From assembly GCA_963575745.1 (NCBI GenBank), contig CAUYUJ010000003.1, positions 868,001-932,000 of the forward strand: a stretch of DNA of 64,000 bases, given 5' to 3'. Origin of the DNA: Prorocentrum cordatum (taxonomy: Eukaryota). Position 1 is the stretch's first letter. Each line of letters starts with the position of its first letter. The notes below the pieces were generated by a model. The model did not search any database, had not been told where the DNA came from, and saw only the letters and a list, made by a program, of their open reading frames with translations. Positions 26,401 through 56,724 of this stretch are shown one piece after another. The position numbers and the translations under genes were made by a program.

Positions 26401-29400
26401 TGCATTACGCTCTAGGTGCTGGATGATGGATCCGATGATGTGCTGGTCGAGCGGCTCCAGGTTGTTATCCTGTGCCCTGGCTGCCGTTCGGAGCTTCTGC
26501 GGCGCCGCCTGGATCTGCTCGGCCTGCGGGGCGTCTCCCGTCCACTTGCGCTGCCGGGCTTCCTTGCGCAGGTCCACCAGCTGCCGCGGGCGCGTGACCA
26601 CCTGGACCTCGCGCTCCAGGATGTCCTCCAAGTGGCTGCGCTCGGCCGCCTTGGTGTAAGCATAGGCCGTCTTCGCGCTGCCTGCCGTCGCGTCGTGCAC
26701 CCGGTGGACGTGCACCTTCTTCGCTGCTTTGGTGAGCAGCTTGGCGGCGCTCTTGACCTCCTCGGCAACCTTGATACAAGTGCCTGGGTCTGCTAGGGCC
26801 CCACCCGCTATGGGGCCGAGCATTGCCAGTAGCTGCTCCTGCTGCTCCTTGGCCGCGCCGTCTTCTTTGGTACTGCCGTAGTCTGGGCAATGGAGTTGGA
26901 GTGCGATCTGTCGCCTCGTTCGTGCCTGCTGTAGCGTCTGGTTGCCTCGCTTGATGCTGGCCTCCTGCTTTCTTCGACTACTCGGGCCACTCCTCGCTCC
27001 TGGGCCGTTTGCGTGCTCAGCTGCTGTTGCATCCTGTGGCTCTTTTGGCCCTTGCTCTTGCTCAGGTTGCTCTTCGGGATCGCGCGGCTGGCCTGCTGCG
27101 CCGCCTGCCGTTGCCTCTGGCGGCCGGGGTTCTGGCCTGCGCCCTGGCGCTCTATCCCCGAGCGCGCGACGCAGCAAGCCTCGCGGTGCTGCCAGTTCCC
27201 TCCAGCGCTGCATCTCCAAGTCGCAGCGCCCCGCGGGGGGCCACGCCTGCCGACCTCCTCAAGAAGCCTTGGCGGCGAGGAGCTGCTTGCCGCCATGCGC
27301 TCTCGCACTGGTTCCAGAGAATGTCCCTGAGGCTGGCGCGCGGGCGCCATCCTCTGATCAGCTGCAGCAGTCTACCGCCCCCGCCGTTGCCGATCATTTC
27401 TTCGAGGGGGGGGGCAGGCGCCATGTCAGCCGCTGCTCGCTGGAGTTCGGGCCGCACACAAGGTCGCCCATCCGCGTGGCTCCTCATCTCTGGAGGTCGA
27501 GGCGCGTCGCCGCGTAGTCGTCGACATCGCGACCCCTTCTGCGCTGGATCTCCTCCGAGAGCCAGGGCGAGGGCAGGCGCATGTCTTGCGGCGGCTCTGC
27601 TGGCGCGCCCTTCACCGGTGCAAGGTCACCGCTGCGGCTCCCGCTGCAGCCTAACCCCTCGCCGCGGCCTATGCCCTCGCCGCGCTGGGGCTGGCTGTGG
27701 CCTTGCCCCTCGCCGCGCCGGGGCCGGCAGCGGCCTGGCCCCTCGCCGAGCTGGGGCCCTGCTGCCCCTGCTCGCCCCGCTGCCGGCGCCCGGCTTTTAC
27801 CGCCGGCTTCCTGGTGGATGTCCCACTGCCAGTGGTACCCGACGCAATCCTCCTCATCTTCGAAGGGGTCGTGATCTTCGATGCCCACGGTGCTGCGTCC
27901 TGCTGCCGGGGGAAAGGCACCCCTCTGAATCCCCTCTGCGCCACCTCCCGGGCAGCTGCGGGGCTGGCCCACGTCGCGGTCTGGGGCGCGCCCCGCAGCG
28001 GCGCGCTTGGGTGGCGGGGGGCCCTGCCCCATCTCAGAACTGCAGGAGGCGGCGCCCCCCCCATGGACTGCCGCGCGCCCTGGGCGGCGCGCCGGCATCT
28101 TTTTTGGACAAGCGCCCCCGCCCCAGAGGTCCAGGGCGCGTCCTTTGGCGGCGGTGCTGGGCAAAGGCAGCGGCGCCCGTCGCAGCCTCTCTCCGGCCTG
28201 CTCGCGAGCTCCTGGGCCTCGGCCTGGGGCGGGGGAACCTCCTCCAGTGCTGCCTGGTTCATGCCAATGTGCACAGTGGGCCGCTGCCGTCGCCTCCCCC
28301 GCTGTCTGCTTGCCCCTGCTGCTGGGGCGGTGCGGGGGGGCCCTGGCCCCGCTCGGTGGGGGCGCGATCCGCCGAGCGTTCTCCCGCGCCCTTCGACGGG
28401 CTCACGGCTGGCGAGGGGGCCCCGGCATCGCTGGCTGCCTGGCCCGATGACGCGGCGGCGCTGGGCTCGGGCGCCGACGGGCCCAATCCACCATCTGAGC
28501 CTTCGTCGGTTTGGGCCTGCGGCTTGAGGGTTTGGCGCGCCGCCTCTTCCTCCTCCCAAGCCCGCGCGTCGCGATGCGAGAGCTGGCTCACTAGCGAGGC
28601 GATCTCTGCCCACCGCGCGCGCGCGCCTTCCACTCGGCGCCTGCCCACGCGAGGGCAGGGGCCGCGTCCTGGATGCTGATGCTCTTGTAATCCGGCGGCC
28701 TGCCCTGCCCAAGGTGCTTGCCGCGCTCGTCGGCGGGGGGGCCCGCGCTCTCGCGCAGGCTGAGCTCGAGCGCGTCCGCGAACTGCCCACGCCGCCGACC
28801 TAGTTGCAGCATGTCGTCTCCGATCAGCGCGCCCACGACCGTGCCCTGCAAGTGCGCGGCGAGCTCGCCCAAGGCCCGCGCTCGAACTTCGGCGGCCGTG
28901 GCCAGCCAGAGCTCATCGTGGACGACGTGCTGCACCTCCTTGTCGCAGTGCAGCTGCGACACTGGCTCCGCGCCATTCTCGTCGCCCTCGCAGCCTGATT
29001 CAGCAAGCGATTGCTGTCGCCTTCACATTGCTTCTTGCCCTCCACGGGCGGCCCCGCGGCAGGCTGCGCGCGACTTGGGCATCTTCTCGATGGTGACTGG
29101 CGGTTCGATGGCCGCTGGTCTTCGTGGGCCCCCCCCCTCTGAGCTGTCGGGGTCTGCCGTTCAGCTTGGGCCTGACTCCGCTGCGCGGCTTCCACGGCGC
29201 TGTCCTGATCAGCTCCTGCTCGCCAAAGTGCGGCGCGAGGCCTGTCGAGATGAACGCGTAGTCTAGGCAGCGCGCTGCGCCCGCAGCTGGAAAGCACGTC
29301 GGGGCCTCGTTCTCTGCTGCAACCACCTGCGCATGTAGCGCCCCGGGCCAGAAGCTGTCGTTGAACCCCGACGGCGCGATGTTGAAGTCGCCCGCGGCAG

Positions 29401-31313
29401 CCCAGGCCCCCCCCCCCCCCTGGGCTGCCATCTTCTCGCGCAGGTCGCAGTGCAAGTCAATGTTCCTGTCCGCCGGGCCCGTGCCGCACTCCAGGTAGAT
29501 GAAGGCTACAACGGAGCGCACCTTGTGGAGGTTGGTGATCACTACCGTGATGTCGCTGCCCTCCCCCCTCTGGTCGCGCTCGTCGTAGCCCGCAATCCTG
29601 TCCTGGATGTCCAGCGTGCTGCGCGCGAGGGCACGGGTGCCCTCTCTGGTGCCTTCTCCTTCTCCTGGGCGTGCTCTGGTCCAGTGGCTGCGAAGCCCGC
29701 TCTTCCGCAGGGCCGCTCTTGCCTTGCTGACGCGCGCTGTCTGGCGCAGGCGGTGCTCCGCCATGCCGATGATGTCTCTGTCCTCCGCAATGTTGATCTC
29801 CCCGAGGTAGCCTTGCGCCTGGTGCCCCCCGGTGGTGATGTTGAAGAAATCGACGTGGAATTGGCGGCGAGCCCTCTTCTTTCTCGCCTCCTTGCGACTA
29901 CCCTGGGGACTCATCGCTTTGCACCTCTGCGACGGAGACCTCAGCTCGCCGGGCCCGGGCGACCATGCCCCTTGCCTGCTGGGCGTGAGCATCCACTCGG
30001 GCTCGGCGTTCTTCGTCTCTGCTGCCTGCTCCTGCGTCTGGTTCGGCAGTTTCGCCTGGAGCATCTGACTCAGCGGCGCCGGTGGGCTTGGCCGCTGCTG
30101 CTGCTCCAGAGCCTGCTGACTCTCTTGCTGGCTCGCGCTGTGGCGCTGGGCTCGGGCAGAGCTTCTTGCCTGACGGGCCCTGCGAGCGATCTGCCTGCTC
30201 TGCTGCTGCATCTGGTTGGCGTTCGAGGCGGCCCTGTTCGATCTGCCGCAGCTGCTCCTGGTACTTGGCCGTCTCTTCCGCCAGGTACTGCAGGTGCTTT
30301 GCCGTCTCCGCCTCGTGTTCATTGACTTTGTTGGCCATGGCCTCGCTCTTCGCCTTCGCCGCGCGCCAGACTTCTTTCTCTGGCTCTGCCCACCTGTGGA
30401 AGTCGTCGGGCTCCTTCTCGAACTGTTCCAGGAGGGCGGCCAGGTCGGGCTTGTCGGCTGGTGCTGCTGCGCCTGCTGGAGCTGGTTCAGGCTTGCCGAC
30501 TGGGCCTTGAGCGTGTCGAATTCCTCCTCTGCTGCGGTGGCCGACTCCATTGCCTCATGCAGCTTGCGTTCACTATCTGCCAGATGCTGCTTGGCGCTCT
30601 CGACCGCTTCTCCTGCTGCTCGCGCCCGCTTCTGGATATTGTCCAATCGTCTGGCTGCTGCTTCCACTGCTTTGGGTCCAACTGATGGTGCAGCTGCTGG
30701 TTGCTGAGATGCCACCAGTCCTGGCCAGAGCGCCTCATAGTGGGTGCGGACGGGATCGTCCTTGGAGAGCTTGTCGTACGCTGTGGCTGCAGCTGTGTGC
30801 TGCTGTTGGTCTCCACGCCCCTTGCCTCCTGCACCTCCTTGATGCCATCCATCCGCCCGCATGACTCTCGGCGAACCATTTACTCCTGCTCCTCCCCATG
30901 GGAGGTTGGGCCTGCTGCGGCCGTCGTCGTCGTTGAAGATGTGGCCTTCTGACACGAAGTGGGCGAGGCTGGCGCCACATATGCGGGCATCGTTTCTGCT
31001 GGTGATGTTCGTGCAGTAGCGCCACCTGCTGCACTCATCGCACACCACATAGCTGCTGCGTGGAGGACGGCTGCCGCTGCCGCTCCTCCACGGAGCCCTC
31101 TGGCCATGCGGAGCCCCCGTCCAGGCGCTGCCCGCCCCGCGTCCGCCGCCGCCATGCCCCATGGCTGCTGCGGTGCCGCCCGCGCGCGCCCGACGCCCGT
31201 CAGAAGACTGTCCTCGGTCCAGAGGTCTCCCTGCGGCCTGGAGGTTGGACAGCCCCCCAGGTTGGAGGCTGGACAGCCCCCCAGGTCATCATCTTGAGCG
31301 AAAACGGTGACGG
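23500..31313 (-). mobile_element. Near full-length degenerate LINE: ORF1, APE endonuclease, RT, Zn finger, RNase H
   Basis: ORF1 from 31162 (CDEC Zn motif, coiled coil); APE motifs FFNIT, MAEH, AGDFN, PTC, LDY; RT motifs RPIGLMHMPYRIWS, YDAANSYDSI, MVAGC, QYLDD, VRDLG; CARC...HRYYDC; RNase H motifs TVPRAEL, SDCKY, NEMADKYA. Confidence 0.92.
31293..31313 (-). other. Relict dinoflagellate spliced leader at the LINE 5' end
   Basis: Minus strand CCGTCACCGTTTTCGCTCAAG versus CCGTAGCCATTTTGGCTCAAG: 17/21 ungapped, in sense orientation, 130 nt upstream of the ORF1 ATG. Confidence 0.75.
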
Positions 31314-31413
31314 GGAGGTACGGAGGGAGGAGGAGGAGAAGGGAGGAGACGTTGGTGATGGTGGGCACCGATTGCGGGCAGCGTCCGAGTGGCTGGGAAT
31401 AAGCAGCCTGAGG

Positions 31414-39662: not shown

Positions 39663-40699
39663 CAACATAGTTGCTCGATGCCTCCCTGGCTTGTTCGTCC
39701 TCATCGCCTGCTCTGCGAGATGATCGCAATCTATGGTATCGAAAGTGGTGCTTGGTGTTGAGGCGCCAGGCGTGCTGCTTGATGTCGCGGCCCTTGGCGC
39801 GCTGCTCGGCGCCGTGGCCCTCAGCGCGCTGCTCGGTGTCGCTGCGGCGCTTAACCGTAGGACTGGAAGAGGCGTTCGAGCCTGGCGCCCGGACTGCCGT
39901 CGCGCCTCGATGAGCGCGCGCTCTCCTCGTCGCATCAGCGCTGGTCGCAGCGCAGCTGCAGCGCGGCGACTGGCGCGAGACTTCGCGGTGCATCGCGCCG
40001 CGTGCGCCCGCGGATTGACGACCGCCCAGTCGCCCTCGCGATCCTTGAGCTCGACGTTGCACCTGCGCAGCTGGTCGAGGATGGGCGCTCGAGCAAGCGC
40101 CGTGCAAACCGCGTTGCTGTGCCCGGCCTCTGGGGCCAACGGCTCGCGGCATGCTCTGTGCTGAGTCAAATGGAGCACCTGCGCGTCGGACATCTGTCGC
40201 ATTGGTGGCCGTCTTTTCTGTTCGCCGTGGCGGCCGTAGAACACAATTCTGGCGCCAGAGTCTTGGGCTCGTGGGCGCCAGTCGGAAAACAAACCTCGCC
40301 ACTGCCCGCGTCGCATGATCCACGCCAGGTTGCAGGTGGAGCTAGAACAAGCCGGGCCGGCTAGCCTCAAGGAGGCGCCCTCGTAGCTGCCGGGTGCGAA
40401 CGACGTCGAAGCCGTGCTCTTGTCGTGAAAGCGAAACGCCCCGTCCTCACTCCTGAACCCAAGCGGGACGCCCCGGTCCTGCTGCCCGCTGATGCCTGGG
40501 AAAGTCGGCCGAGCCAGCCACGCGGGCTGGCCTCTCCTCCTCCTAGCGCAGGGGCTGCGCGACCTCGGTGACATACTTGCCCGCAGGCCCCGCTGGCGCC
40601 GTGGCGCCCGCATCCTGCTGGATCGGGCCGTTGCCGAGGTGCGTCGCGCCAGCGTGACCGAAGCCCCCGGAGCCGCCAGAAGATGGAGAAGGACAGCTA

Positions 40700-41060
40700 A
40701 CGACCAGCTATGTCGGTATTCGTGATGATGCGCTCTGGGACGAGTTGGGCGATCCTCTGGCCCTGCTCGACCGCGAACATCCGCGTGCTGGTGTTGTGCA
40801 TGATCAGATCCAGCTCGCCGCGGTAATCGGGGCCCATCACTCCGCCCGCGACGTCGACGCCCACGAGGGCAAATCCCGAGCGTGGGGCGATCCGTGGGTG
40901 GGCGCCAGGCGGCGCGAGAGCGGCCACGCCTGCGGTCGCCAGTTCGCGACCACAAGTAGCGAGACTGACGTCCGCGCGCGCGAATTGGGTCGTAGCCTGT
41001 TTCGCGAGGTGCGCCCCGCACTGGTGCTCGTGCGTCGGGGTCGAGAAGCTGCATCTTGAG
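40700..41060 (-). pseudogene. dut: dUTPase domain in copia-2 pol
   Basis: IAPRSGFA (motif II), VAGGVMGPDYRGEL (III) and VEQGQRIAQLV (IV) of trimeric dUTPases. Confidence 0.92.
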
Positions 41061-45019: not shown

Positions 45020-45244
45020 ATAATCTACGCGCCCACCTTAGCTACTAGACTGGGTCCGAGGGACCAAAAGCATTGTTTTTTTTGCTGGTTGGAGTGAACG
45101 TAAGGTTTAAGGTGAGAGAGAGCGGGTTTCCATAGGGAACAACATTGGGGCGGCTGGAGCCGCTCTCCCCCCAAGGAGGGATGCATCCCCTTGACGGGAG
45201 GCCGACCGACCGAGGGGCGATGCATCCCTCTGGCCGATCCCCCC
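45020..45244 (-). repeat. Split direct repeat B2 (3' terminus)
   Basis: Same as 45616-45840 apart from homopolymer lengths. Confidence 0.95.
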
Positions 45245-45403
45245 CCTTGTAACAGAGGGGAAATGCCTCCCTCATGCGCGACCAACCACGGAGGGGAGAT
45301 GCATCCCTCATGCGCGAAGTGTCGCGCTCGAGGCTTCGTCGCTTCGCTTACCCTCTTGGCCCCCCCCCAGCTTGCTGAATGCAAACCCAGGGCGGGAGGG
45401 TGG

Positions 45404-45615
45404 GAAAAATCAAATCGCAAGGTGAGCGCGGCCACCGCGGCCCGTCGCCCCCCCTTCCTCGCAGCCCCTCGGCGCGGGCAGCGAAGGGGGGGGGCGCCCC
45501 CCCCCTCTCTTCGCCCCTGCGCCCCGAGCTGCATGCGCGGGCGACGTTTCCAAGGTGTCCGCGCGCGTACATTATGAAGCACTCACCCATGCCTGCCCGG
45601 GCCTAAAGTGCACCC
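45404..45615 (-). repeat. Split direct repeat A2
   Basis: Same as 53402-53620 apart from a 6-nt indel, homopolymer length and one edge substitution. Confidence 0.95.
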
Positions 45616-45840
45616 ATAATCTACGCGCCCACCTTAGCTACTAGACTGGGTCCGAGGGACCAAAAGCATTGTTTTTTTTTGCTGGTTGGAGTGAACGTAA
45701 GGTTTAAGGTGAGAGAGAGCGGGTTTCCATAGGGAACAACATTGGGGCGGCTGGAGCCGCTCTCCCCCAAGGAGGGATGCATCCCCTTGACGGGAGGCCG
45801 ACCGACCGAGGGGCGATGCATCCCTCTGGCCGATCCCCCC
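45616..45840 (-). repeat. Split direct repeat B1
   Basis: Abuts A2 directly (gtgcaccc|ataatc on the plus strand). Confidence 0.95.
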
Positions 45841-45936
45841 AACGCTGCTCACCCCCACGCCCCGCTCGCTCACCCAACGCTGTTCACTTACCGAGCAACA
45901 CAATGTATAACGGCGCGTCGCAGCCACACGTGGGGG

Positions 45937-48333
45937 CTACCCGCGGGCGAAGCGCCATGCGCTCTCCAAGCTGCCCGTCCAAATACGACTGTCCACGCCG
46001 ATTCGCTTTGCTGGAAATCGATGTCGCCTCACAAACGCGTCACTTCCTAGCTGCCTCGAAATCCCGTCCGACCAATTGGTCCCCGAAGGCGTGAATTCCC
46101 ACCACGTGGTGATCGAACGGCGGCTCGCCAAGAAATTAGTGAAAGCAATCGACCGATCCAGCGCGGCCGGCACCGCGCAGCCCTTGACGTACGAATGCAG
46201 AGAGCTGGTATTGTCTATGAAATACAGCACGCGGCGGTTTGCCAGCCGCTTAGCGTGGCGCTGGTAGATGATGGGCGGCATCGCGCCCTCACACAGCGCG
46301 ATGGGCTGGCCGCCCTGCCTCAAGCGCTCCTCACAGTAGCCCCACATGCCCAGCAGAGCCCCGTCAAAAACGCAGAAGCCAGCTTGCCGATAGCCGTCGG
46401 CGCAATCTAACAACACGTACCCCCCTGTCGGCCACGCGTCATTGTCAGCGCGCGCGTCAGAAGCAATGAGAATCAAAGGCTCGCTTCTCGGCGCGATCTC
46501 GGCCACGCGGCTCGGCATGTCTTGCAGAATTATATAAAAGAAATCGAGGGCGCGCACCAGGCAGTTGCTCAGGGTCCAAGGCGGCTGATCTGTGTACTGC
46601 CGTTGCCTCAGAGCCCCCATGCCTGCTTTGCCCACGCCGTGCCACGCCGCTCTGGCGATGAAGTTGAGGAGGCCTCTCAACTTGCTGGCGTCTCTGGGCG
46701 TGAGCCTGCCCTCGCTGCGCCTCGCCGCAATGAACGTCTTCGCCTTTTCGACGAGAGTGTCGCGCGCCCTGAAAGATATGACATTCGAGTCCAGCGAAGG
46801 GCCGAAGGTGTGCACGACGCCCAGAAAATCGCCGGACGGGCTCATCCTCCTCGTCTTCGAGGGAGCCACAGGCGTGCCCAACTCCGCGCAAAGGCACTGT
46901 GCGGCCTCCTGACCAGCGCCCCCAGCTGATTCAAAATCAGTAATATTCGCGTCGTCCACATACATGGCAAGCAAAAGCGACAACACGCGGCGCTGCACTG
47001 CCTGCAGGAATCCTCCCCATCGCGCGAACTGCATGACTGACGCGGAGAAACCGAAAAGCAACGCCCACGCCACCTGGAACCTCCATTCTCCCGTGACAGG
47101 ATCGCGGACCGCCACGACGTTCAAGCGCAAGTGATCTGGGTGCACTGGGACTGAGCGATAGGCCGACGGCAAATCTTCGCCCCCCGACACGAGCCTCTCG
47201 CGGGCCACGTCGGCACCAGCGTCCGCACACGCTTGCCGGACCACCCTCGCATCGATGACAGGCTGGAATGGCGTACACATTCTTTGCCGCTCACAAAATG
47301 CCGTCGCTTCGTTCTGCCTACCCCGACGCCCGTCGTCGATTCTCCTCCTTTTTCCAGAAGGCTGAATATGGCAAAACGCAGGAATCGGCGCCCACTGCCC
47401 CGCGCCGAACTCCGCATCAATGTCCGACTTGCTTCGCAGCGGTGCCGCCCAGCCTTTCTTGCACTCTTCCTCGCAGCTATCCCAGAGAAATTGGCCCTCC
47501 TCACTCGCGCGCTGGCGATCCAGTTCCGCCAGCAAGACTTTGGACTCTCCAAGCAGCGAGTGCACGGGCATGGGAGCTTCATACTCGGATGGTTCAAAAG
47601 CACCCGTATTCTCCATTACGCCAGTGATGCCAAAGCCGGTGACAAAGCGCAACGCCAGCTTTTGGTCTGGCCACCGCGCGAGCACCACCAGCACGGCAAT
47701 GAGTCCGGCGTGAATATGCCCCGCCACGGCGCGCACAGTCGGACTCTGCCACTTCAAGAGCTCCGCCGTGAGGGGCTTGCACCGGCGACTAAGCTCTTGC
47801 AGCGCGTGCATGCTGCGCAACCGAAACTCCCTCAAGTCGCGCAGCTCTGCGGCGGTGGACTCCGCCGCAAATTTCAAGTCATGCGGAGCAGCAACGTCCT
47901 CATCGAACGGTAACTTCCCCCGCTTCGCGAAATCAACCGCGGCGCGGAAATGCTCTTCCTCATCCCGGCTGTGGCCCAGGAGAGGCGGCAACGCGTGCTT
48001 GGCCGAGAGCGCCCCGGCCTGTCGCCCCGCCGCGGCTTCCAGCATGGCAGACGTGCCCTGGCCTGCCGTGCTGCCAACTGGTCCAGCGATGCTGCGCTCG
48101 TCTAGCCACTTTGCGAAATCCACGAACGGCGACTGATTGACTAGATCTTCCAATGACGGAAAAACAAAACTGCTCAGCCATTCCCTGGGGAACATGCTGA
48201 CGACGCACTGCCGCAATTGGCGCTGCGACCACATCACGGGGAAGTGCCTCGATACCCGCGGCGCCTGCGCAAACGAAGACGCGCCGTCGCTCGGCGCCCC
48301 GCGCTGATGCGCTCGCGCCTGCGGTGCCGACAC
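45937..48333 (-). CDS. Reverse transcriptase-RNase H of the YR element (true start uncertain; frame is open back to the gag stop)
   Basis: 798-aa open ORF: RRIDD, DLPSAYRSVPV, LLFG, MYVDD, FLGV; RNase H ASDA, IALCE, FIDN, NWSDGISR. Confidence 0.95.
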   Translation of the reverse strand: MSAPQARAHQRGAPSDGASSFAQAPRVSRHFPVMWSQRQLRQCVVSMFPREWLSSFVFPSLEDLVNQSPFVDFAKWLDERSIAGPVGSTAGQGTSAMLEAAAGRQAGALSAKHALPPLLGHSRDEEEHFRAAVDFAKRGKLPFDEDVAAPHDLKFAAESTAAELRDLREFRLRSMHALQELSRRCKPLTAELLKWQSPTVRAVAGHIHAGLIAVLVVLARWPDQKLALRFVTGFGITGVMENTGAFEPSEYEAPMPVHSLLGESKVLLAELDRQRASEEGQFLWDSCEEECKKGWAAPLRSKSDIDAEFGAGQWAPIPAFCHIQPSGKRRRIDDGRRGRQNEATAFCERQRMCTPFQPVIDARVVRQACADAGADVARERLVSGGEDLPSAYRSVPVHPDHLRLNVVAVRDPVTGEWRFQVAWALLFGFSASVMQFARWGGFLQAVQRRVLSLLLAMYVDDANITDFESAGGAGQEAAQCLCAELGTPVAPSKTRRMSPSGDFLGVVHTFGPSLDSNVISFRARDTLVEKAKTFIAARRSEGRLTPRDASKLRGLLNFIARAAWHGVGKAGMGALRQRQYTDQPPWTLSNCLVRALDFFYIILQDMPSRVAEIAPRSEPLILIASDARADNDAWPTGGYVLLDCADGYRQAGFCVFDGALLGMWGYCEERLRQGGQPIALCEGAMPPIIYQRHAKRLANRRVLYFIDNTSSLHSYVKGCAVPAALDRSIAFTNFLASRRSITTWWEFTPSGTNWSDGISRQLGSDAFVRRHRFPAKRIGVDSRIWTGSLESAWRFARG

Positions 48334-48432
48334 ATCGGACTCCTGCTCGCCCGATGACTGCGCTGATTGCGCCTGGCCGAGAACGCGCGCTTGCTGCGCG
48401 CGGAAACCTGGCTGGGCGCTGGGTGCGCCCGC
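48265..48432 (-). other. Two candidate GC-AG introns in the gag-pol linker: 48265-48318 (54 nt) and 48373-48432 (60 nt)
   Basis: CAG|GC...CAG|G boundaries, with the same size and 5' sequence as the other introns. Both are frame-neutral, so less certain. Confidence 0.55.
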
Positions 48433-48519
48433 CTGCGCTGGCGCAAAGAAGCCGTGCTCCGCTGGACAGGCAACGTGCCCCCCTGCCTCGGCGCTGTCCT
48501 CCGCCCTGGCGGGGCCCCT

Positions 48520-50070
48520 TCAATACTGCGACAACGCGCCCTGCTCCGGGATCGGCGCCTTGCGGCACACGGCGGCGCAGTGATTCCTCATGCCGCAGAC
48601 GCGGCCGCTCTTGCTCACGATCATGGAGCATGCGTGCTCCAGATTCTTCGGGCAGGGCTCCGGGCACGACCCCCGATTGAAATTCTTGCACAGCTCCTTT
48701 CCGTTCTTGAGGTGGGTCGCCAAACCGGTGCTCGATCCCTTCTGCGCGCCCTTGGGGTTGCGCTGCCCGCGCCCTGCACCCGCGCCTCCCTGCTGCGCCG
48801 CAGGTGGCGGCGGGGCGCCCCGCGGGGCTCCGCGCGCGAAGTCCGCGGCAGGCCGCGCGTCGGGGGCTGGTGCGAAGCCGCGTGCGGGGATCTCCCACAT
48901 GTGCTCCCTCCTTTCGAAGACATCCTTGATGATCTTTCCCAGCGACATGGACGTGCGGCGATGCCTGCACGCCGGTGGAACGTTCGCGACACTAGCCCCT
49001 CGCAGCTCGCGGATCGCGGCGCGCCTGTCAACCCACTGCTGTCGCTCCTCCTCATCCCGCTGTTGCAGCCACTGGAGGGCCTGACTCGGGGGAAGGATGG
49101 TGGCACACTGTGCGAGCCTCCTGTGGTAGGCGAGCACGACATCCAGCGGCACCTGACGCGCGACGGACCGCCGGTTGCCGCGCGCGATGCACCGCGTTCG
49201 CGCCTCGACGTAATCCGTGCTGTCGCGATCCATTGCCTCTGGTTCCGCTGGCTGCGGATCCAACTGGACGACGCCTGCACGCGCCGCGCGCGCTGGAAAC
49301 GCCAGCGTCGCGATGCACAGCGCGCTGTTGCGCCTGCACGCGCGTGCGCCAGCATCAGTGTGTGATGCAAATTGACATACGTTGCCACGTCTCTGCGCGG
49401 TTCCGTGTCGAATTCGTTCGCTTGCTCCCCTGTGACGAGGACTAGCCCCTCCGCAATGCGCTGCCGCTTCCTCGTCATGGTCAGCTGATGCGTCAACGTC
49501 TTCACGCGGAAAACCGAATGCACCTGCGGACGCGCGCGCGAACGACCGCGCGGAGACGCGCGCAGCGCGCACAACGCCAACGCGTGCCTGCAGCAAACGC
49601 CGCGACAGCTCCTTTGAGATTCTGCTCACCAAGTGATCGCACGGCTCAGTCTTGACCCCGAACCCCAGGCGATACCTCGCGTAAAACTTGGCGCGGATGT
49701 CTTTCAGGTCACTGTTGGGCAGGAGCGCATCGAGGTCATCATCCTCGACGCCACGCTTCTTCCGCGTGTCGGAGATCGTTTCGGCCTGCCTCGCCGCGGT
49801 CCAGGCCTGGCGCAGCCGCGACGCTTGAATCCCTGGGAAAGAAAGGCCCTCGATCTTTTCGATTACCTTGGTTTCGACTTCCTGCTCCGACGTGAAGAAG
49901 TGTGTGAAATCAGCCATGCTCTCGAGGCCCGCGACTGACACCAAGTGGGTGGCCACCTTGGGGTCCAACCGGAACGCGTTGCACAAAAGCGTAAACAGCT
50001 GTTCCGCGGCCTCGCGGCCTCCCGACACAGACGGCAGCTGCAACGCCTGCCCGCCGATCGAAAGCGCCAT
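48520..50070 (-). CDS. Gag-like protein, 5 exons, 438 aa after splicing
   Basis: Exons 50070-49588, 49523-49334, 49274-49204, 49152-49025 and 48964-48520. Joins read RRLLQ|VHSVFRVK, LAHARAG|VVQLDP, TDYVE|VPLDV and WVDR|HRRTS. C-terminal Cys/His cluster CKNFNRGSC..C...HAC. Confidence 0.85.
   Translation of the reverse strand: MALSIGGQALQLPSVSGGREAAEQLFTLLCNAFRLDPKVATHLVSVAGLESMADFTHFFTSEQEVETKVIEKIEGLSFPGIQASRLRQAWTAARQAETISDTRKKRGVEDDDLDALLPNSDLKDIRAKFYARYRLGFGVKTEPCDHLVSRISKELSRRLLQARVGVVRAARVSARSFARASAGAFGFPREDVDASADHDEEAAAHCGGASPRHRGASERIRHGTAQRRGNVCQFASHTDAGARACRRNSALCIATLAFPARAARAGVVQLDPQPAEPEAMDRDSTDYVEARTRCIARGNRRSVARQVPLDVVLAYHRRLAQCATILPPSQALQWLQQRDEEERQQWVDRRAAIRELRGASVANVPPACRHRRTSMSLGKIIKDVFERREHMWEIPARGFAPAPDARPAADFARGAPRGAPPPPAAQQGGAGAGRGQRNPKGAQKGSSTGLATHLKNGKELCKNFNRGSCPEPCPKNLEHACSMIVSKSGRVCGMRNHCAAVCRKAPIPEQGALSQY
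48965..49587 (-). other. Four GC-AG introns in gag: 49524-49587 (64 nt), 49275-49333 (59), 49153-49203 (51), 48965-49024 (60)
   Basis: All have AG|GC...CAG|G boundaries; the first two switch the frame into and out of exon 2. Confidence 0.85.
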
Positions 50071-50399
50071 CGCGCACGTGAGGACAAGTCGCAACGCCTC
50101 GCGCCCTCAAGATCGCTGGCACGTCTGCTCGCGCGCTGAAAGCAACGGCTTGCGCATGGCGTGCGCTGGCGTTATTGCGCGCTGCAACATGCGCTCACAA
50201 ACTGCTGATGCAGCAAAATGCGCGGACATGGCCACGCCGCACCGCTTGTGCGCTCATACTGCGCTTGCGCGGCCCCAGCGCAGGCTGCTGATGCAGCACC
50301 CGCGCACGCACGACAACTCTACGATTTCCGCTCGCGTGGGTCGCGCTGGTGCAATATACGCGCGAAAAGCGACCGCGCGGACATGGCCGCGCTGCAATG

Positions 50400-53348
50400 C
50401 TAGTGCGTACGGCCCTGCGCCCGCGCGGCTATCGCAAGCACGGCATCCCGGGCCGCCAGTACCGACGGCTGGCACGCCGCATGTTCCAGCTCATGGGCTG
50501 CTCGGGCCAGGAACGCCGCGCGATTCTGGCACCTGCGGCATACCAGATCACCGTCGGTCAATCTTCCGACCCACGTGGGGGAAGCCAACGTGACGTCGCA
50601 CGCGTTCGTCAGCTGCTTCCTGTTGACTAAGACAGAAGTCTTCTCCGCCTTTCGTCGCTTGCGTGATCTGATACGCGGAGAGCCGCTGACTTCAATGGCG
50701 ACGTGATGACGCTCATTCGTGACAATCCAGCCTAGCTCGGCGGGAATGCCGATCGTTGCCCCGTCGCAAACCTTGGGCAAAGCGCACAAGCGACGCGCGC
50801 GCTCGCCATGCAACGGCGCTGGCGAGAAGACCGCTGCTGATGCGGGGTTCAGTCTGGCTGGCTGCGACGGTGGCGCTGGGTGCGCCTGCACAGCGACCGA
50901 ACGCTTTGCTCGCATGACGCGGCTTCGGGCGCTATTTGCGCCGGCCTGCGGGGCGCCCGCTACCGTGTCTCCCACGGCCGATGATGGCGCGGAGTGCGCC
51001 TGAACGAAACGGCGGCGCTGCACATGCGCACATTACGCTCCCCCCCGGCGCTGCGTGCGCCTGCACCGCTGTTGTTGCTGCAGCGGGCTGCACATACGCC
51101 CGCGACGGTGACGCTGCCTGCGCCTGCGCGGTAAAGAAGCGCTCCGCGCACGACGACCCCTGGCGCTGCGTGCGCCCGCCTGCGCTGATGCTGCTGCAAC
51201 AACGTCGCCCCCAAGGGCTGACGTTGGCGCTGCATGCGCTCGCGCTGCTGCTGCAGCTGCCTGCACATACGCCCGCGACGGTGACGCTGCCTGCGCCTGC
51301 GCGGCAAAGAAACGCTCCGCGCGAATTACAAAGCCCCTGGCGCCGCATGCGCCCGCCTGCGCTGCTGCTGCAACAACATCGCCCCCAAGGGGTGACGTTG
51401 GCGCTGCCTGCGCCTGCGCTGCTGCTGCCGCAGGGGCAGCTCCAACCGCTGGCGCCGCTGCTCCCGCAAGCTCCCCGGCACTCGGCTGTGCTGCCGGCTT
51501 TGCCCGCTCGACGGGCAACGCTGCGGATGACTGGCTGTCTCTTTCCTCATCGCTGCCGATCTCGCCTTCCTCTAGCGCGCGTTTACCAGCGATCCCGCGC
51601 AGGCGCTGCGCCCGCCGCGGCCGCTGCGGCGGCTGGGCAGCGCGGCGGCCCCGGCTGCGGAACTGTCGCCTCAGCGCTGCGCTCTGCTCCCCGTAATTGG
51701 ACGCGGTGAACGCGCCAAACCGCCGGCGCGCCAGCTCTTTCTTTACCGCCGGCGGCAGAAACTTCGCGGGCTCGGGCGCGCCCTGTGCCGCCAGCAGCTG
51801 CATCGCGCGGCGCCGCGCGCCCGCTGCGACCTCCTGCGCGGCTGGCGTATCCCACCAAGCTTTGACCCCTTCGAATCGCAGGGGGGCTGGCAAGCTGGCC
51901 ACGGCCTCGTGAAACACTTCGTGCATGTACAGACGGACGAAACCCTGCTGCTCACGTCTGGTTCCAGCGTATCGCAACGGCATCATGTTCGGGGCGCCGG
52001 TGCTTCCGCCACCATCGCGGGGCGTCCAGCCCCCGCCAACAACGCGCTCTGTCCACGGAAGCTGCACGCTTTCCGCCAACGTCGGCATGAAACGCCTCAG
52101 GCTGTACGACGTGATCAGTTTCCTCTCGAGCGGTGAATTCAGACAAAGGCCGATCTCAGACTGCAGAAACTTTGAGAAGTGCGCGAGACGCCAGAGCTGC
52201 CCCGTATCCTCGTGCGCCGCGAGGCCCCTTGGCAGGGGGGCGCCTTCGCCGGCAGCCCCTGCGCGCTTATGCCACGCGTCCCAGAGCACATCCGCTGCGC
52301 AACGCGGCTCCGCGGTCCGCACCAGGCACCAATCGAAACATCCGCCGCGCTTTCCGCGGTAACATCTGAACCAGGCCAGCGCTCTCGTCCTTTCAATCGG
52401 GTACGACCGTGACAAATGCTGGAATCTCAGCCACCCGTGGCACAGCGCGATCGCTGCAGCGGCGGGAACCTCGAGCCAACCGCGCTGCGCTGCCTGTGCG
52501 GCAAGTATCTGATGCAGGAACGATACCATGCACGGCTCGAGCACGGTCGCTTGCCGCAACTCTCCCCCCGCTTTGCTCGCGGGCCGCGCGTCTGGCTTCA
52601 TCGCGTCTTCGAGCGCGAACGGCGCACCGAGATACTTCTGCAGCCACTTCAACCGATTCCACACGCGCACCCCGGAGGCTTGTTCACCGCACATATGACA
52701 TATGAACTCGTCCACCATCAGTGTGCTGCCAGCAGCCTCCGCGGAGAGGGGCTCGAGCTGCCGTGCTCGGGCCCACGCCTCCCATCTCGCCCAGACGCGC
52801 AGCGCGTCCCGGACCCCCGCGCTCGCGAAGCGCGCCAGCCTCTTCGCCGCCGCGGACCCGGGTCCGCACAAGCGCTGCGCCTGGCCCTCGGGGAGCCCCC
52901 GCGCCAAGCCGTGCGCTGGGCCCCAGGACGCGGACAGCTGCACCGCTGCCCCGGCCGCGCTGGCGCGCTGCGCGGCGTCCGCCTCCTCTGTGCCGGAGGC
53001 GCTCGCCGCCGCGCGCTGCACGCCGCGCCCCCCTCTTGGCGGGCGCAAGCCAGGGAGGACCATCGCCAGCGCGCGTGGCGGAGCGTCCGCCTTGCGCGCG
53101 GGCGGCGCTGACTGCGCCTCGCGGGCCACCCTGTGCCACGCTGCCACTCGCGGATGCCCCGCGAGCTGCCGAGCTCGCCGCCACGCCTCCTCCTGTCCCG
53201 AGGCCGCGGCTGCCTCCACCGTGGTAAAGAAAAATGCCAGGTCGTCGACGTCCTCGATGCCTACCTCCCTGACGAAACACCAGAAGCGAGCGCGCGCGTC
53301 GACCGGCAACGTACTCCCTATGGCGGCCAATCCACATTCGCCTGCCAT
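50400..53348 (-). CDS. Tyrosine recombinase with a long Ala-rich tail and C-terminal His/Cys cluster, 903 aa after splicing
   Basis: LRFQH (R), RGK (K), YSLRR (HxxR box with H>Y), GGW and MPLRY (catalytic Y). Three minus ORFs are joined by splicing; the tail has RHH...C...CRRC. Confidence 0.88.
50886..51356 (-). other. Four GC-AG introns in the YR tail: 51297-51356 (60 nt), 51124-51179 (56), 51000-51060 (61), 50886-50945 (60)
   Basis: All have CAG|GC...CAG|GC boundaries; the 56- and 61-nt introns coincide with the two apparent frameshifts. Confidence 0.82.
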
Positions 53349-53401
53349 CGCCACCGCCAAGCAAATGGATGCGAAGCGCAAAAGACAGCAGAGAAACCCG
53401 A

Positions 53402-53620
53402 GAAAAAACAAATCGCAAGGTGAGCGCGGCCACCGCGGCCCGTCGCCCCCCCTTCCTCGCAGCCCCTCGGCGCGGGCAGCGAAGGGGGGGGGCGCCCCCC
53501 CCCCTCTCTTCGCCCCTGCGCCCCGAGCTTGAGCTGCATGCGCGGGCGACGTTTCCAAGGTGTCCGCGCGCGTACATTATGAAGCACTCACCCATGCCTG
53601 CCCGGGCCTAAAGTGCACCC
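53402..53620 (-). repeat. Split direct repeat A1 (5' terminus)
   Basis: Matches 45404-45615. Confidence 0.95.
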
Positions 53621-53682
53621 AAGACCGCCAAGGGCACGGGGCGAAGTCACGCGGGCCATGGCGGCAGTTGGTAGAGCGACGC

Positions 53683-55885: not shown

Positions 55886-56127
55886 AGCCTTTTAGGTTTC
55901 GCAGGGCCTCCTCCTCCTCCTCCTCGCACCTCCCTCCTCCCTCCTCTCTCCTATCTCATCATCCCCCCGCTTCCACGATGCCCCGAGCTCCTCTCGCCCG
56001 CCTCCGCCGCGCGGGCGAGCTGCAGCGCCTCCACGCTACCGGGCGCGGCCTTCAGCAACGCCTGGGCAGCCTCGGAGGCGCGGTCGTACTCTCCGAGCGC
56101 CAGGCAGACCTTTGGGCGCGCTCCAAG

Positions 56128-56512
56128 AGGAGGAGGGGGAGAAGAAGGATGGGGGGAGGAGAAGGAGAAGGGGGGGAGAAAGAAGAAGGACGGGAGCAGG
56201 GAGGAGGGGGAGGAGGAGGAGGAGGACGAGGAGGAGGAGGAGGACGAGGAGGAGGAGAAGGAAGAGGAGGAGGGGGAGGAGGAGGACGAGGAGGAGGAGG
56301 ACGAGGAGGAGGAGGACGAGGAGGAGGAGGAGGAGGAAGGGAGGAGAACGGCAGTGGGGAGAGAAGGGAGAGGAGCAGGAGGAGGAGGAAGAGGAGGAGG
56401 AGGCACTTATGGGTTACGACTATTCGAGGAAGAGGGGGAAGGAACAGGAGGAGGAGGAGGAGAAGGAGGAGGATAAGGAGTACGAGGAGGAGAAAGGAGG
56501 TGCAAGGAGGAA
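56128..56512. repeat. (GAG)n purine-rich low-complexity tract
   Basis: Visible tract. Confidence 0.95.
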
Positions 56513-56724
56513 AAGTCCTCCTCCCGCCTCCTTCTCCTCTTCCTGCCCCCGCCAGCATATCTCATCGGATGGGCGTTCCCGCACACCGATATCACTCATC
56601 CCCCTCTCTTCTCTTCCTGGGCATCTCTCCCCCGTTCCTCTGCATGGGCAGAGAGCCCTCCTGTGGTCCCTCTTGTGCTCCTATCCTCCTTCCTCCCCAC
56701 TTCCTCCCCCTCCCCCCTCCTCAC

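What the first reader, a model, noticed from the sequence alone, without database searches (positions are those of the whole stretch)
48265..51356. A retrotransposon carrying 8-10 tiny spliceosomal-type GC-AG introns
Seen: eight 51-64 nt segments bounded by AG|GC...CAG|G in gag (4) and the YR tail (4), plus two candidates in the gag-pol linker. Four have lengths that are not multiples of 3 (64, 59, 56, 61) and lie exactly at the frame switches. Removing all eight gives continuous 438-aa gag and 903-aa YR proteins, while the RT/RH and YR catalytic cores appear intron-free. Known: GC donors with AG|G context are common in dinoflagellates, and retroelements normally lose introns, with rare exceptions such as Penelope-like and some fungal YR elements. 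Inference: the element copies an unspliced genomic RNA but translates spliced mRNAs, so splicing would sort template from message.
Basis: partly seen in the sequence, partly recalled or inferred. Interest (0 to 1): 0.95.

Follow-up and report, generated by a model that had tools for sequence, protein, structure and literature searches.

The report
Retrotransposon with tiny GC-AG introns
A jumping gene that copies itself through RNA carries at least four very short introns inside its capsid-like gene, which is odd because such elements normally lose introns each time they copy themselves.

Summary
On the minus strand, 53621->45020, lies an 8.6-kb tyrosine-recombinase-type retrotransposon with split direct repeats (A1-coding-B1-A2-B2) and gene order YR - gag - RT/RH.

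Four segments in gag (64, 59, 51 and 60 nt) are bounded by AG|GC...CAG|G. All four are exactly absent from an independent homologue (P0003) and from the gag ORFs of 8 related metagenome loci. Removing them gives a 438-aa gag that aligns without gaps at the four junctions.

These segments lack codon periodicity. They differ about three times more often than exons from a diverged copy that still keeps introns 1-3 at the same lengths.

The four "YR-tail" and the linker candidates are weaker. They are units of a degenerate ~58-nt tandem array in low-complexity sequence. Composition, a CGTT motif, missing periodicity and a frame/stop argument (56 + 61 nt) favour introns. No homologue tests them, and other splice patterns also keep the frame open.

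No RNA run was available, so splicing itself, and the use of an unspliced RNA as template, are inferred and not shown. DNA contigs from four runs all carry the segments, and no intron-less copy was seen.

Verdict: real and unusual, a new variant of known spliced retroelements.

The parts
45020..53621 (-). whole retrotransposon, A1 - YR - gag - pol - B1 - A2 - spacer - B2
   Evidence: repeat structure; ORFs
53402..53621 (-). split direct repeat A1 (5' end of the element)
   Evidence: 96.4% identical over 220 nt to 45404-45616
45616..45840 (-). split direct repeat B1
   Evidence: 99.1% identical over 226 nt to 45020-45244
45404..45616 (-). split direct repeat A2
45020..45244 (-). split direct repeat B2 (3' end), separated from A2 by 159 nt
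51033..53348 (-). YR-like ORF from its ATG to the in-frame TAA (771 aa unspliced); core about aa 87-621 of P0001
50400..51032 (-). same frame reopening after the TAA; holds a conserved Cys-containing C-terminal domain (about 50403-50768)
51076..51428 (-). 173-nt tandem duplication (2 copies, 88% matches) inside the ~58-nt unit array 51419-50831
51297..51356 (-). tail candidate intron A1 (60 nt, 3n, no stop)
   Evidence: not testable by homologues
51124..51179 (-). tail candidate intron A2 (56 nt); its removal restores the reading seen in the first repeat copy
51000..51060 (-). tail candidate intron A3 (61 nt); contains the in-frame TAA; a diverged copy (P0019) differs by a frame-shifting indel here
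50886..50945 (-). tail candidate intron A4 (60 nt, 3n, no stop; holds an ATG that could also start a separate small ORF)
48520..50070 (-). gag gene including its TGA stop; N-terminal Luciferase/LBP-N-like domain and a C-terminal Cys/His knuckle
49524..49587 (-). gag intron 1 (64 nt, shifts frame)
   Evidence: absent from P0003 and 8 loci; exon 2 periodicity
49275..49333 (-). gag intron 2 (59 nt, shifts the frame back; 10-nt direct repeat at both borders)
49153..49203 (-). gag intron 3 (51 nt, in phase)
48965..49024 (-). gag intron 4 (60 nt, in phase)
48520..48522 (-). gag TGA stop with pol in the same frame behind it (candidate read-through site)
48433..48486 (-). linker candidate K0 (54 nt)
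48373..48432 (-). linker candidate K1 (60 nt), similar to tail unit A2
   Evidence: (family D8)
48265..48318 (-). linker candidate K3 (54 nt)
45937..48519 (-). pol ORF (860 aa); part conserved with homologues starts near 48231; YVDD motif; RT fold

Best explanation
This is a recently inserted member of a multi-copy family of tyrosine-recombinase retrotransposons. It has Ngaro/PAT-like split direct repeats and the gene order YR - gag - RT/RH. Its gag gene is interrupted by four 51-64-nt spliceosomal-type GC-AG introns, two of which shift the reading frame. Up to seven further units of the same kind probably lie in the low-complexity YR tail and in the gag-pol linker. A functional gag, and probably a full-length YR with its C-terminal domain, can only be made from spliced mRNA. 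The genomic copies keep the introns, so the RNA that is reverse-transcribed must be one that escaped splicing, with the proteins acting in trans.

Shown: the position, borders and lengths of the segments; their absence from homologues' coding sequence; the lack of coding signal in them; and their retention in a diverged copy and in DNA contigs of four runs.

Inferred: that the spliceosome removes them, that unspliced RNA is the template, and that the introns were gained in this lineage.
For: (1) Architecture. Repeat A occurs at 53402-53621 and 45404-45616, and repeat B at 45616-45840 and 45020-45244.

(2) Pol is an RT. The AlphaFold model has pLDDT 76.6. All 50 best PDB matches are reverse transcriptases, the best being MMLV RT at E 7.7e-11.

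(3) YR. R, K, YSxRR, GGW and Y columns are invariant in 6 of 6 sequences. In the ESM Atlas, 20 of 30 hits are clusters carrying PF00589, at score 0.95.

(4) Gag. With the four segments removed, the 438-aa product aligns to P0003 at 44% identity and 333 bits, with no gap at any junction. The unspliced product gives 35% and 253 bits with 100 gap columns.

(5) Nine of 28 related metagenome loci hold gag. Eight cover all four sites and one covers two. None has an insertion at a site.

(6) Exon 2 shows codon-position composition only in the spliced frame (log-likelihood margin 16.8). The four introns show none (margins 0.2-1.1).

(7) Against the diverged copy P0002, codons differ in 17 of 57 intron positions and in 20 of 208 exon positions (Fisher p 3.4e-4). 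There is no indel in introns 1-3.

(8) DNA contigs of 4 of 4 runs cross the segments unspliced. Examples are X2 at 48438-51117 with 3 differences and X3 at 45811-51117 with 5. No joint lies at any candidate.

(9) Tail and linker units resemble the gag introns. A content is 13.1% in the candidates and 9.8% in the gag introns, against 17.6% in coding sequence. CGTT lies 11-18 nt before the 3' end in 5 of 7 candidates and 18-27 nt before it in 3 of 4 gag introns, but occurs once in 345 nt of the units between them. Six of the 7 candidates (A1-A4, K0, K1) show no periodicity (margins 0.2-0.7); K3 is intermediate at 1.9.

(10) Removing the 56-nt and 61-nt units deletes the only in-frame stop and keeps the frame.

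(11) DIRS-1 proteins can act in trans (PMC7192593, passages read).
Against: No RNA data: no listed run holding the element is on record as RNA, so splicing has not been observed.

The unspliced gag frame stays open for 528 codons, so an unspliced product is not excluded.

The AG|GC...CAG|G pattern is frequent by chance in this GC-rich DNA (41 in 7.9 kb).

The host's own splice signals could not be examined. Only 1 of 142 other ORFs in the window matched Pfam above its cut-off, and that gene (a dUTPase) is broken by frameshifts, not introns.

The tail and linker candidates are units of a tandem array, and five of the seven (A1, A4, K0, K1, K3) are multiples of three without stops, so they could simply be coding repeats.

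The CGTT motif and the composition contrast were found after looking.

P0019 versus the window shows no faster change in unit A4 (3 of 20) than in its neighbours (2 of 18 and 8 of 46; read).

The C-terminal domain is found elsewhere only as short separate ORFs in 7 of 8 hits. It has no detectable homology to the C-termini of the distant relatives' YR proteins.

I cannot tell whether the related metagenome contigs are DNA or RNA, so the direction of change (gain or loss) is uncertain.
Confidence: 0.7

Rival explanations
1. Dead or non-autonomous copies. The four gag segments are insertions (small mobile or duplicated DNA) that broke gag and are never spliced. The family persists by DNA-level duplication or by using proteins from intron-free relatives.
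For: No RNA evidence. Direct repeats of 5-10 nt flank the segments, as after an insertion. The relatives' gag ORFs have none of them. [quoted passage not shown]
Against: Four independent insertions would each need to carry exact GC...CAG ends at AG|G sites and excise to a frame-perfect, homologue-collinear ORF. The two frame-shifting ones sum to 123 nt. All ORFs are otherwise intact (438, 860 and 771 or more codons). Terminal repeats are 96-99% identical. Intron lengths are conserved in a copy whose exon codons differ in about 10% of positions, while exons stay constrained.
Confidence: 0.15
2. Only gag has introns. The YR-tail and linker units are ordinary coding or spacer minisatellite repeats, the TAA at 51035-51033 is the true YR stop, and the conserved downstream domain is a separate small ORF.
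For: There are ten units of ~58 nt sharing one motif, in both putative introns and putative exons, and a recent 173-nt duplication. Five of the 7 candidates are 3n and stop-free. Relatives of the domain are short stand-alone ORFs in 7 of 8 hits. An ATG lies in unit A4. hhalign gives no link to the distant relatives' YR C-termini. Several other removal patterns are also open.
Against: The frame after the TAA is the YR frame and stays open for 130 codons before the domain. The second repeat copy reads like the first only if the 56-nt unit is removed. The candidates match the validated introns in composition, the CGTT motif and, except for K3, lack of periodicity, while the units between them look coding. 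The distant relatives' YR ORFs run uninterrupted to just before gag.
Confidence: 0.35
3. Assembly or sequencing artefact: the segments are not in the real DNA.
For: None found.
Against: Contigs from 4 of 4 independent runs carry them with 0-5 differences per contig. Database proteins from other assemblies (P0002, P0004, P0019) read through the same segments.
Confidence: 0.01

Closest known systems
Ngaro / PAT-like and dinoflagellate 'SymbioDIRS' tyrosine-recombinase retrotransposons
   Same: Split direct repeats in the order A - coding - B - A - B, with RT/RH plus a YR ORF and no DDE integrase or protease found. Variable order of the YR and pol ORFs is reported for Symbiodinium DIRS elements (PMC5890265, passages read; SDR definition in PMC13465315, passages read).
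   Different: The published dinoflagellate elements were annotated as intron-less genes (PMC5890265). Here gag carries four introns. The YR and RT are too diverged for Pfam. There is a 159-nt spacer between A2 and B2. No methyltransferase domain was found.
Penelope-like elements
   Same: These retroelements are known to keep introns through retrotransposition (PMC8557442, passages read).
   Different: They have a different RT clade and use a GIY-YIG endonuclease, not a YR. They usually hold a single intron, often in the 5' UTR. Here there are four or more tiny introns inside coding sequence, two of them frame-shifting.
Spliced LTR retrotransposons (BARE1, copia, Ogre, CRR) and retroviruses
   Same: Splicing divides the transcripts into RNA that is translated and RNA that is copied. 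Ogre splices between ORFs (PMC3735527, passages read).
   Different: In those elements the unspliced RNA still encodes gag, or gag-pol, and one intron is used facultatively. Here the unspliced RNA cannot encode a homologue-like gag, so splicing would be obligatory for the structural protein.
Introner elements of dinoflagellates and other protists
   Same: They are short sequences that create introns at AG|G-type sites, with direct repeats at the borders. Dinoflagellates use GC and GA donors widely (PMC11453091, passages read; PMC12130899, abstract only).
   Different: No dispersed copies were found. A profile of the 11 units found nothing outside the element in the window or in the 28 related loci at E below 0.8. 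The units are 51-64 nt and show only weak mutual similarity outside the tail.

Membership tests
Tyrosine-recombinase (DIRS-order) retrotransposon, Ngaro/PAT-like | Reverse transcriptase | tested here: met
   A model of pol aa 330-860 (pLDDT 76.6) matches RTs in all 50 listed PDB hits, the best at E 7.7e-11. The YVDD and D..A(Y/F)R columns are invariant. Pfam RVT_1 matched only 1 of 10 relatives, at E 0.0075. The palm region of the model has low confidence.
Tyrosine-recombinase (DIRS-order) retrotransposon, Ngaro/PAT-like | Tyrosine recombinase with the R-K-HxxR-H/W-Y residues | tested here: inconclusive
   Invariant R384, K409, Y491-S-x-R494-R, G-G-W517 and Y536 in 6 of 6 sequences, at spacings like those I recall for Cre and lambda Int. 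In the ESM Atlas, 20 of 30 hits are PF00589 clusters. However, there was no Pfam hit and no PDB profile hit, and the model was poor at pLDDT 47.
Tyrosine-recombinase (DIRS-order) retrotransposon, Ngaro/PAT-like | Split direct repeats A1 ... B1 A2 B2 | tested here: met
   There is a 159-nt spacer between A2 and B2.
Tyrosine-recombinase (DIRS-order) retrotransposon, Ngaro/PAT-like | RNase H after RT; no methyltransferase (Ngaro versus DIRS) | tested here: inconclusive
   The confident C-terminal alpha/beta domain of the model and the matches to RT-RNase H chains fit RNase H, but it was not tested on its own. No Pfam domain of any kind was found in pol.
Spliceosomal GC-AG introns | GC...AG borders in an exonic AG|...|G context | tested here: met
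   4 of 4 gag segments and 7 of 7 tail and linker candidates.
Spliceosomal GC-AG introns | Absent from the coding sequence of homologues, with removal restoring a collinear ORF | tested here: met
   Met for the four gag segments. For the tail, only the frame/stop argument applies. For the linker it is not testable, because homologues' pol calls start after it.
Spliceosomal GC-AG introns | No coding signal; faster change than exons | tested here: met
   for the gag introns. One search also covers six of the seven candidates (margins 0.2-0.7); K3 is intermediate (1.9). For tail unit A4, comparison with P0019 shows no excess change.
Spliceosomal GC-AG introns | Removed from RNA | not testable with these tools
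   No RNA run holds the element. Only DNA-type contigs could be laid.
Introner elements | Many dispersed similar copies in unrelated genes | tested here: not met
   nhmmer with a profile of the 11 units found nothing outside the element in the 64-kb window or in the 28 related loci. The whole genome is not held, so this is a narrow test.
Penelope-like elements | PLE-type RT with GIY-YIG endonuclease | tested here: not met
   No such domain was found. The element has a YR-like ORF and split direct repeats instead.

The most novel reading that the evidence does not exclude
The element is an obligately spliced retrotransposon. Eleven mini-introns of 51-64 nt, all with GC donors, make translation depend on splicing, while replication depends on escaping it. 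This would be a built-in switch between message and template that has not been described for YR elements. In the YR tail, introns and mini-exons are homologous units of one ~58-nt tandem array. That would be a visible case of intron birth by duplication or 'intronization' of AG|GC-bounded repeat units, carried around the genome by a mobile element.
Probability: 0.3. Interest if true: 0.85.

Novelty: new variant of a known kind. Interest (0 to 1): 0.68.

Why it matters
Retroelements are expected to shed introns, because a spliced RNA that is copied back gives an intron-less copy. The known exceptions hold one or two introns, mostly outside or between ORFs. An element whose structural gene needs four splices, and whose copies still keep the introns after clear sequence divergence, says two things. 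First, template RNA and messenger RNA are separate pools. Second, the element's proteins work in trans. It also offers a compact system (four to eleven introns of 51-64 nt with GC donors) for studying how short GC-AG introns are recognised in dinoflagellate-like genomes, and how new introns arise. Practically, intron-less gene models will mis-annotate such elements, as the database proteins P0002, P0004 and P0019 show: all three are read straight through the segments.

Tried and rejected
- No whole genome is held for the window, so copy number and a genome-wide intron or introner census could not be done.
- No RNA holder was listed among 24 runs. The lay of 4 runs gave only DNA-type contigs.
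- The search for related loci with the gag alignment in metagenome contigs found none of 282 stretches confirmed.
- The search for related loci with gag exon 1 found nothing in genome contigs or viral contigs. The pol alignment found nothing in genome contigs.
- Pfam and PDB sequence searches for YR and pol gave nothing useful.
- The AlphaFold model of the YR core was too poor to search with (pLDDT 47).
- The spliced-leader relic search had 0 matches, and Rfam had 0 matches in the window.
- The neighbouring LINE (23.5-31.4 kb) was scanned for the same kind of segments. It gave 133 chance-level candidates and no homologue to test them, so this was dropped.
- Tandem duplication of adjacent exon sequence as the origin of the gag introns is not supported, except for the 10-nt border repeat of intron 2.
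- The 53-nt candidate that would remove the gag stop (48558-48506) was rejected as the route to pol. Gag-TGA-pol in one frame is shared with two relatives.
- Searches for published introns in Ngaro or DIRS elements gave no paper that says so. Muszewska 2013 (PMC3783388) has no occurrence of 'intron'. The Poulter and Butler review is not held, so my memory that some fungal YR elements carry introns is unverified.
Full report
WHAT IS THERE. The finding lies on the minus strand. Stop-to-stop ORFs and translations show three genes, read from 53.6 kb down to 45.9 kb.
- An 847-codon ORF (53576-51033, protein P0001). After a single TAA its frame reopens and runs to 50400.
- A gag-like ORF (50070-48520).
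- An 860-codon pol ORF (48519-45937), in the same frame as gag behind one TGA.

Repeat analysis gives direct repeat A at 53402-53621 and 45404-45616 (96.4% over 220 nt). Repeat B lies at 45616-45840 and 45020-45244 (99.1% over 226 nt). In element orientation this is A1 - coding - B1 - A2 - 159 nt - B2. That is the split-direct-repeat layout described for Ngaro-like elements (PMC13465315, passages read) and for Symbiodinium DIRS elements (PMC5890265, passages read).

IDENTITY OF THE GENES.
- Pfam sees nothing in pol or the first ORF. In gag it sees only a Luciferase/LBP N-terminal domain (PF05295, E 1.1e-08, above its cut-off).
- Pol has 13 database relatives, with invariant YVDD and other RT-like columns. 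An AlphaFold model of its RT/RH part has pLDDT 76.6, although the palm region is weak. All 50 best PDB matches are reverse transcriptases, the best being MMLV RT at E 7.7e-11.
- The first ORF has 2 relatives and further ones in metagenome loci. Six of six sequences keep R, K, a YSxRR box, GGW and Y in the order of the tyrosine-recombinase catalytic residues.
- The ESM Atlas places the YR core next to clusters carrying PF00589 in 20 of 30 hits, at score 0.95.
- Profile searches of Pfam and PDB found nothing and the structure model was poor (pLDDT 47). I therefore call the recombinase assignment likely, not proven.

THE FOUR GAG SEGMENTS. One search lists 41 AG|GC...CAG|G segments of 40-90 nt on this strand in 7.9 kb, so the pattern by itself is cheap. 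A neighbouring LINE gives 133 when GT and GA donors are allowed. The test is comparative.
- The gag search returned two proteins. P0002 (86% identical) is a straight read-through of a diverged copy. P0003 (35%, 410 aa) is an independent homologue.
- Joining the gag exons in a script gives a stop-free product of 438 aa from the ATG. It aligns to P0003 at 44% identity and 333 bits, with no gap at any of the four junctions. The unspliced product gives 35%, 253 bits and 100 gap columns.
- A pol-based scan of metagenome contigs returned 28 loci. Nine hold gag. Eight cover all four sites and one covers two. None has an insertion at a site.
- I estimate that four random insertions carrying these exact borders would have a probability of about 1e-14. 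This is my own estimate from base frequencies, not a tool result.

INTERNAL EVIDENCE THAT THE GAG SEGMENTS ARE NON-CODING.
- The 190-nt piece between segments 1 and 2 shows the element's codon-position composition only in the spliced frame (GC by position 0.64/0.40/0.73; log-likelihood margin 16.8). The four segments show no preferred frame (margins 0.2-1.1).
- Against P0002, codons differ at 17 of 57 intron positions and at 20 of 208 exon positions (p 3.4e-4). The alignment has no indel through introns 1-3. So a copy with about 10% exon-codon divergence keeps the introns at the same lengths.
- A second diverged copy appears as contigs in runs X3 and X2. It spans intron 1 without gaps, with 39 differences in 332 nt.

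THE TAIL AND LINKER CANDIDATES. They are, however, units of a degenerate tandem array.
- The motif GGCGCAnnnAGCGCC occurs ten times at 52-64-nt spacing between 51414 and 50872. It starts both the putative introns and the pieces between them. The array also contains a 173-nt duplication.

Points in favour of introns:
- The only in-frame stop lies in the 61-nt unit.
- The second repeat copy reads like the first only if the 56-nt unit is removed, and 56 + 61 nt together keep the frame.
- The diverged copy P0019 differs from the window by a frame-shifting indel inside the 61-nt unit.
- The candidates are A-poor, like the gag introns (13.1% and 9.8%, against 17.6% in coding sequence). Five of 7 carry CGTT 11-18 nt before their 3' end, and 3 of 4 gag introns carry it 18-27 nt before theirs. 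It occurs once in 345 nt of the intervening units.
- Six of the 7 candidates lack periodicity (margins 0.2-0.7), while three intervening units (K2x, C2x, Dx) and the downstream exon prefer the expected frame. K3 is intermediate (margin 1.9), and two Ala-rich intervening units (B1x, C1B2x) prefer another frame.

Points against introns:
- Five of the seven are multiples of three without stops.
- Other removal patterns are also open, giving 943, 923, 922 or 825 aa.
- Unit A4 changes no faster than its neighbours.
- The motif and composition contrasts were found after looking.
- The conserved C-terminal domain is found elsewhere only as short ORFs in 7 of 8 hits, or just upstream of gag in L003.
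- hhalign sees no link to the C-termini of the distant relatives' uninterrupted YR ORFs (probability 0.09) or to P0005 (0.10).

I put the tail introns at roughly 60% and the linker ones at about 50%.

ROUTE FROM GAG TO POL. The gag stop is TGA, with pol in the same frame, in the window and in the two closest loci that hold both genes (L003, L001). The window and L003 share the bases directly after the stop. Read-through therefore fits better than splicing of the 53-nt candidate at 48558-48506.

RETENTION AND COPY NUMBER.
- No run on record as RNA holds the element.
- Contigs of four runs cover it unspliced. Run X6 lays 729 contigs, of which 510 are 99% or more alike, 187 are 95-99% alike and 132 fit two places. 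This is what a polymorphic multi-copy family gives.
- The only joints are a 157-nt repeat-length variant at 50217/50375 and one A2-to-interior joint. None lies at a candidate intron.
- No intron-less copy was seen, but contigs drop rare variants.

ORIGIN.
- A profile of the 11 units finds nothing outside the element in the window or in the related loci. There is thus no sign of a dispersed introner family within the little sequence available.
- The gag introns are not copies of their flanks, apart from a 10-nt border repeat at intron 2.
- Tail and linker units are related to each other (A2 against K1, K3 and A3 scores 31-33).
- All relatives lack the gag segments, so gain in this lineage is the simpler reading. 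I cannot tell whether those contigs are DNA or RNA.

COMPARISON WITH WHAT IS KNOWN.
- Penelope-like elements keep introns (PMC8557442, passages read).
- BARE1, copia, Ogre and CRR splice their transcripts, and BARE uses separate RNA pools for translation and replication (PMC3735527, passages read).
- DIRS-1 cDNA can derive from spliced and unspliced RNA, and its proteins act in trans (PMC7192593, passages read).
- Dinoflagellates use GC and GA donors in 25-74% of Symbiodiniaceae introns and have introner-driven intron gain (PMC11453091, passages read).
- What is new here is the combination: a YR element, four to eleven mini-introns all with GC donors, two or more of them frame-shifting inside coding sequence, so that the structural protein depends on splicing.
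- My searches found no paper describing this. Subscription reviews of YR elements could not be read.

VERDICT. The gag introns are well supported by comparison, the tail and linker introns are plausible, and the splicing-sorts-template-from-message mechanism is inferred. It is a new variant of a known kind and of clear interest to transposon and intron biologists. RNA data would settle it.

Noticed in passing
window 48520-48522 (minus); L003 1927-1929; L001 826-828: The gag gene ends in TGA with pol in the same frame directly behind it in all three elements. The window and L003 share the ten bases from the stop onward. This looks like programmed UGA read-through for gag-pol.
   Followed up: partly
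window 49760-49970 (minus), gag residues 34-105: The N-terminal domain of this retrotransposon's gag matches Pfam Luciferase/LBP N-terminal domain (PF05295, E 1.1e-08). By eye, a similar stretch opens the YR ORF. The N-terminal domain of dinoflagellate luciferase may therefore share ancestry with a transposon domain.
   Followed up: no
window 23500-31400 (minus): A LINE-like element with endonuclease (PF03372), RVT_1 and RNase H hits, split over at least five ORFs in different frames. Whether the breaks are decay or short introns was not resolved.
   Followed up: partly
window 40650-41060 (minus): A dUTPase (PF00692, E 2.6e-16) whose conserved motifs lie in three different frames within about 400 nt. 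It looks like frameshifts, meaning a pseudogene or a decayed element, not GC-AG introns.
   Followed up: partly
window 50217-50407: A ~155-nt tandem duplication lies between the YR stop and the gag start (family D14). A contig in run X2 lacks one copy (joint 50217/50375, depth 3.7 against ~110).
   Followed up: no
window 53336 joined to 45404 (run X2, depth 2.6): One contig joins repeat A2 to the interior just below A1, with 34 other letters between. It could be a tandem or circle-type junction, or a variant 5' region.
   Followed up: no
window 48520-50106 (minus): The unspliced gag frame stays open for 528 codons although two introns shift the frame (64 + 59 = 123 nt). By my rough estimate, about 8% of such GC-rich stretches would be open by chance. 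An unspliced protein isoform is not excluded.
   Followed up: no
L004, L007, L008, L010, L011, L012 between gag and the pol match: The more distant relatives have about 1.5 kb of extra sequence between gag and the part of pol that matches the window's. The close relatives (L001, L003) and the window do not. Two database relatives carry PF14216.
   Followed up: no
window 55900-56520 (plus): A long purine-rich GAG/GGA microsatellite-like tract (about 92 copies of a 3-nt unit) lies inside a 609-codon ORF.
   Followed up: no
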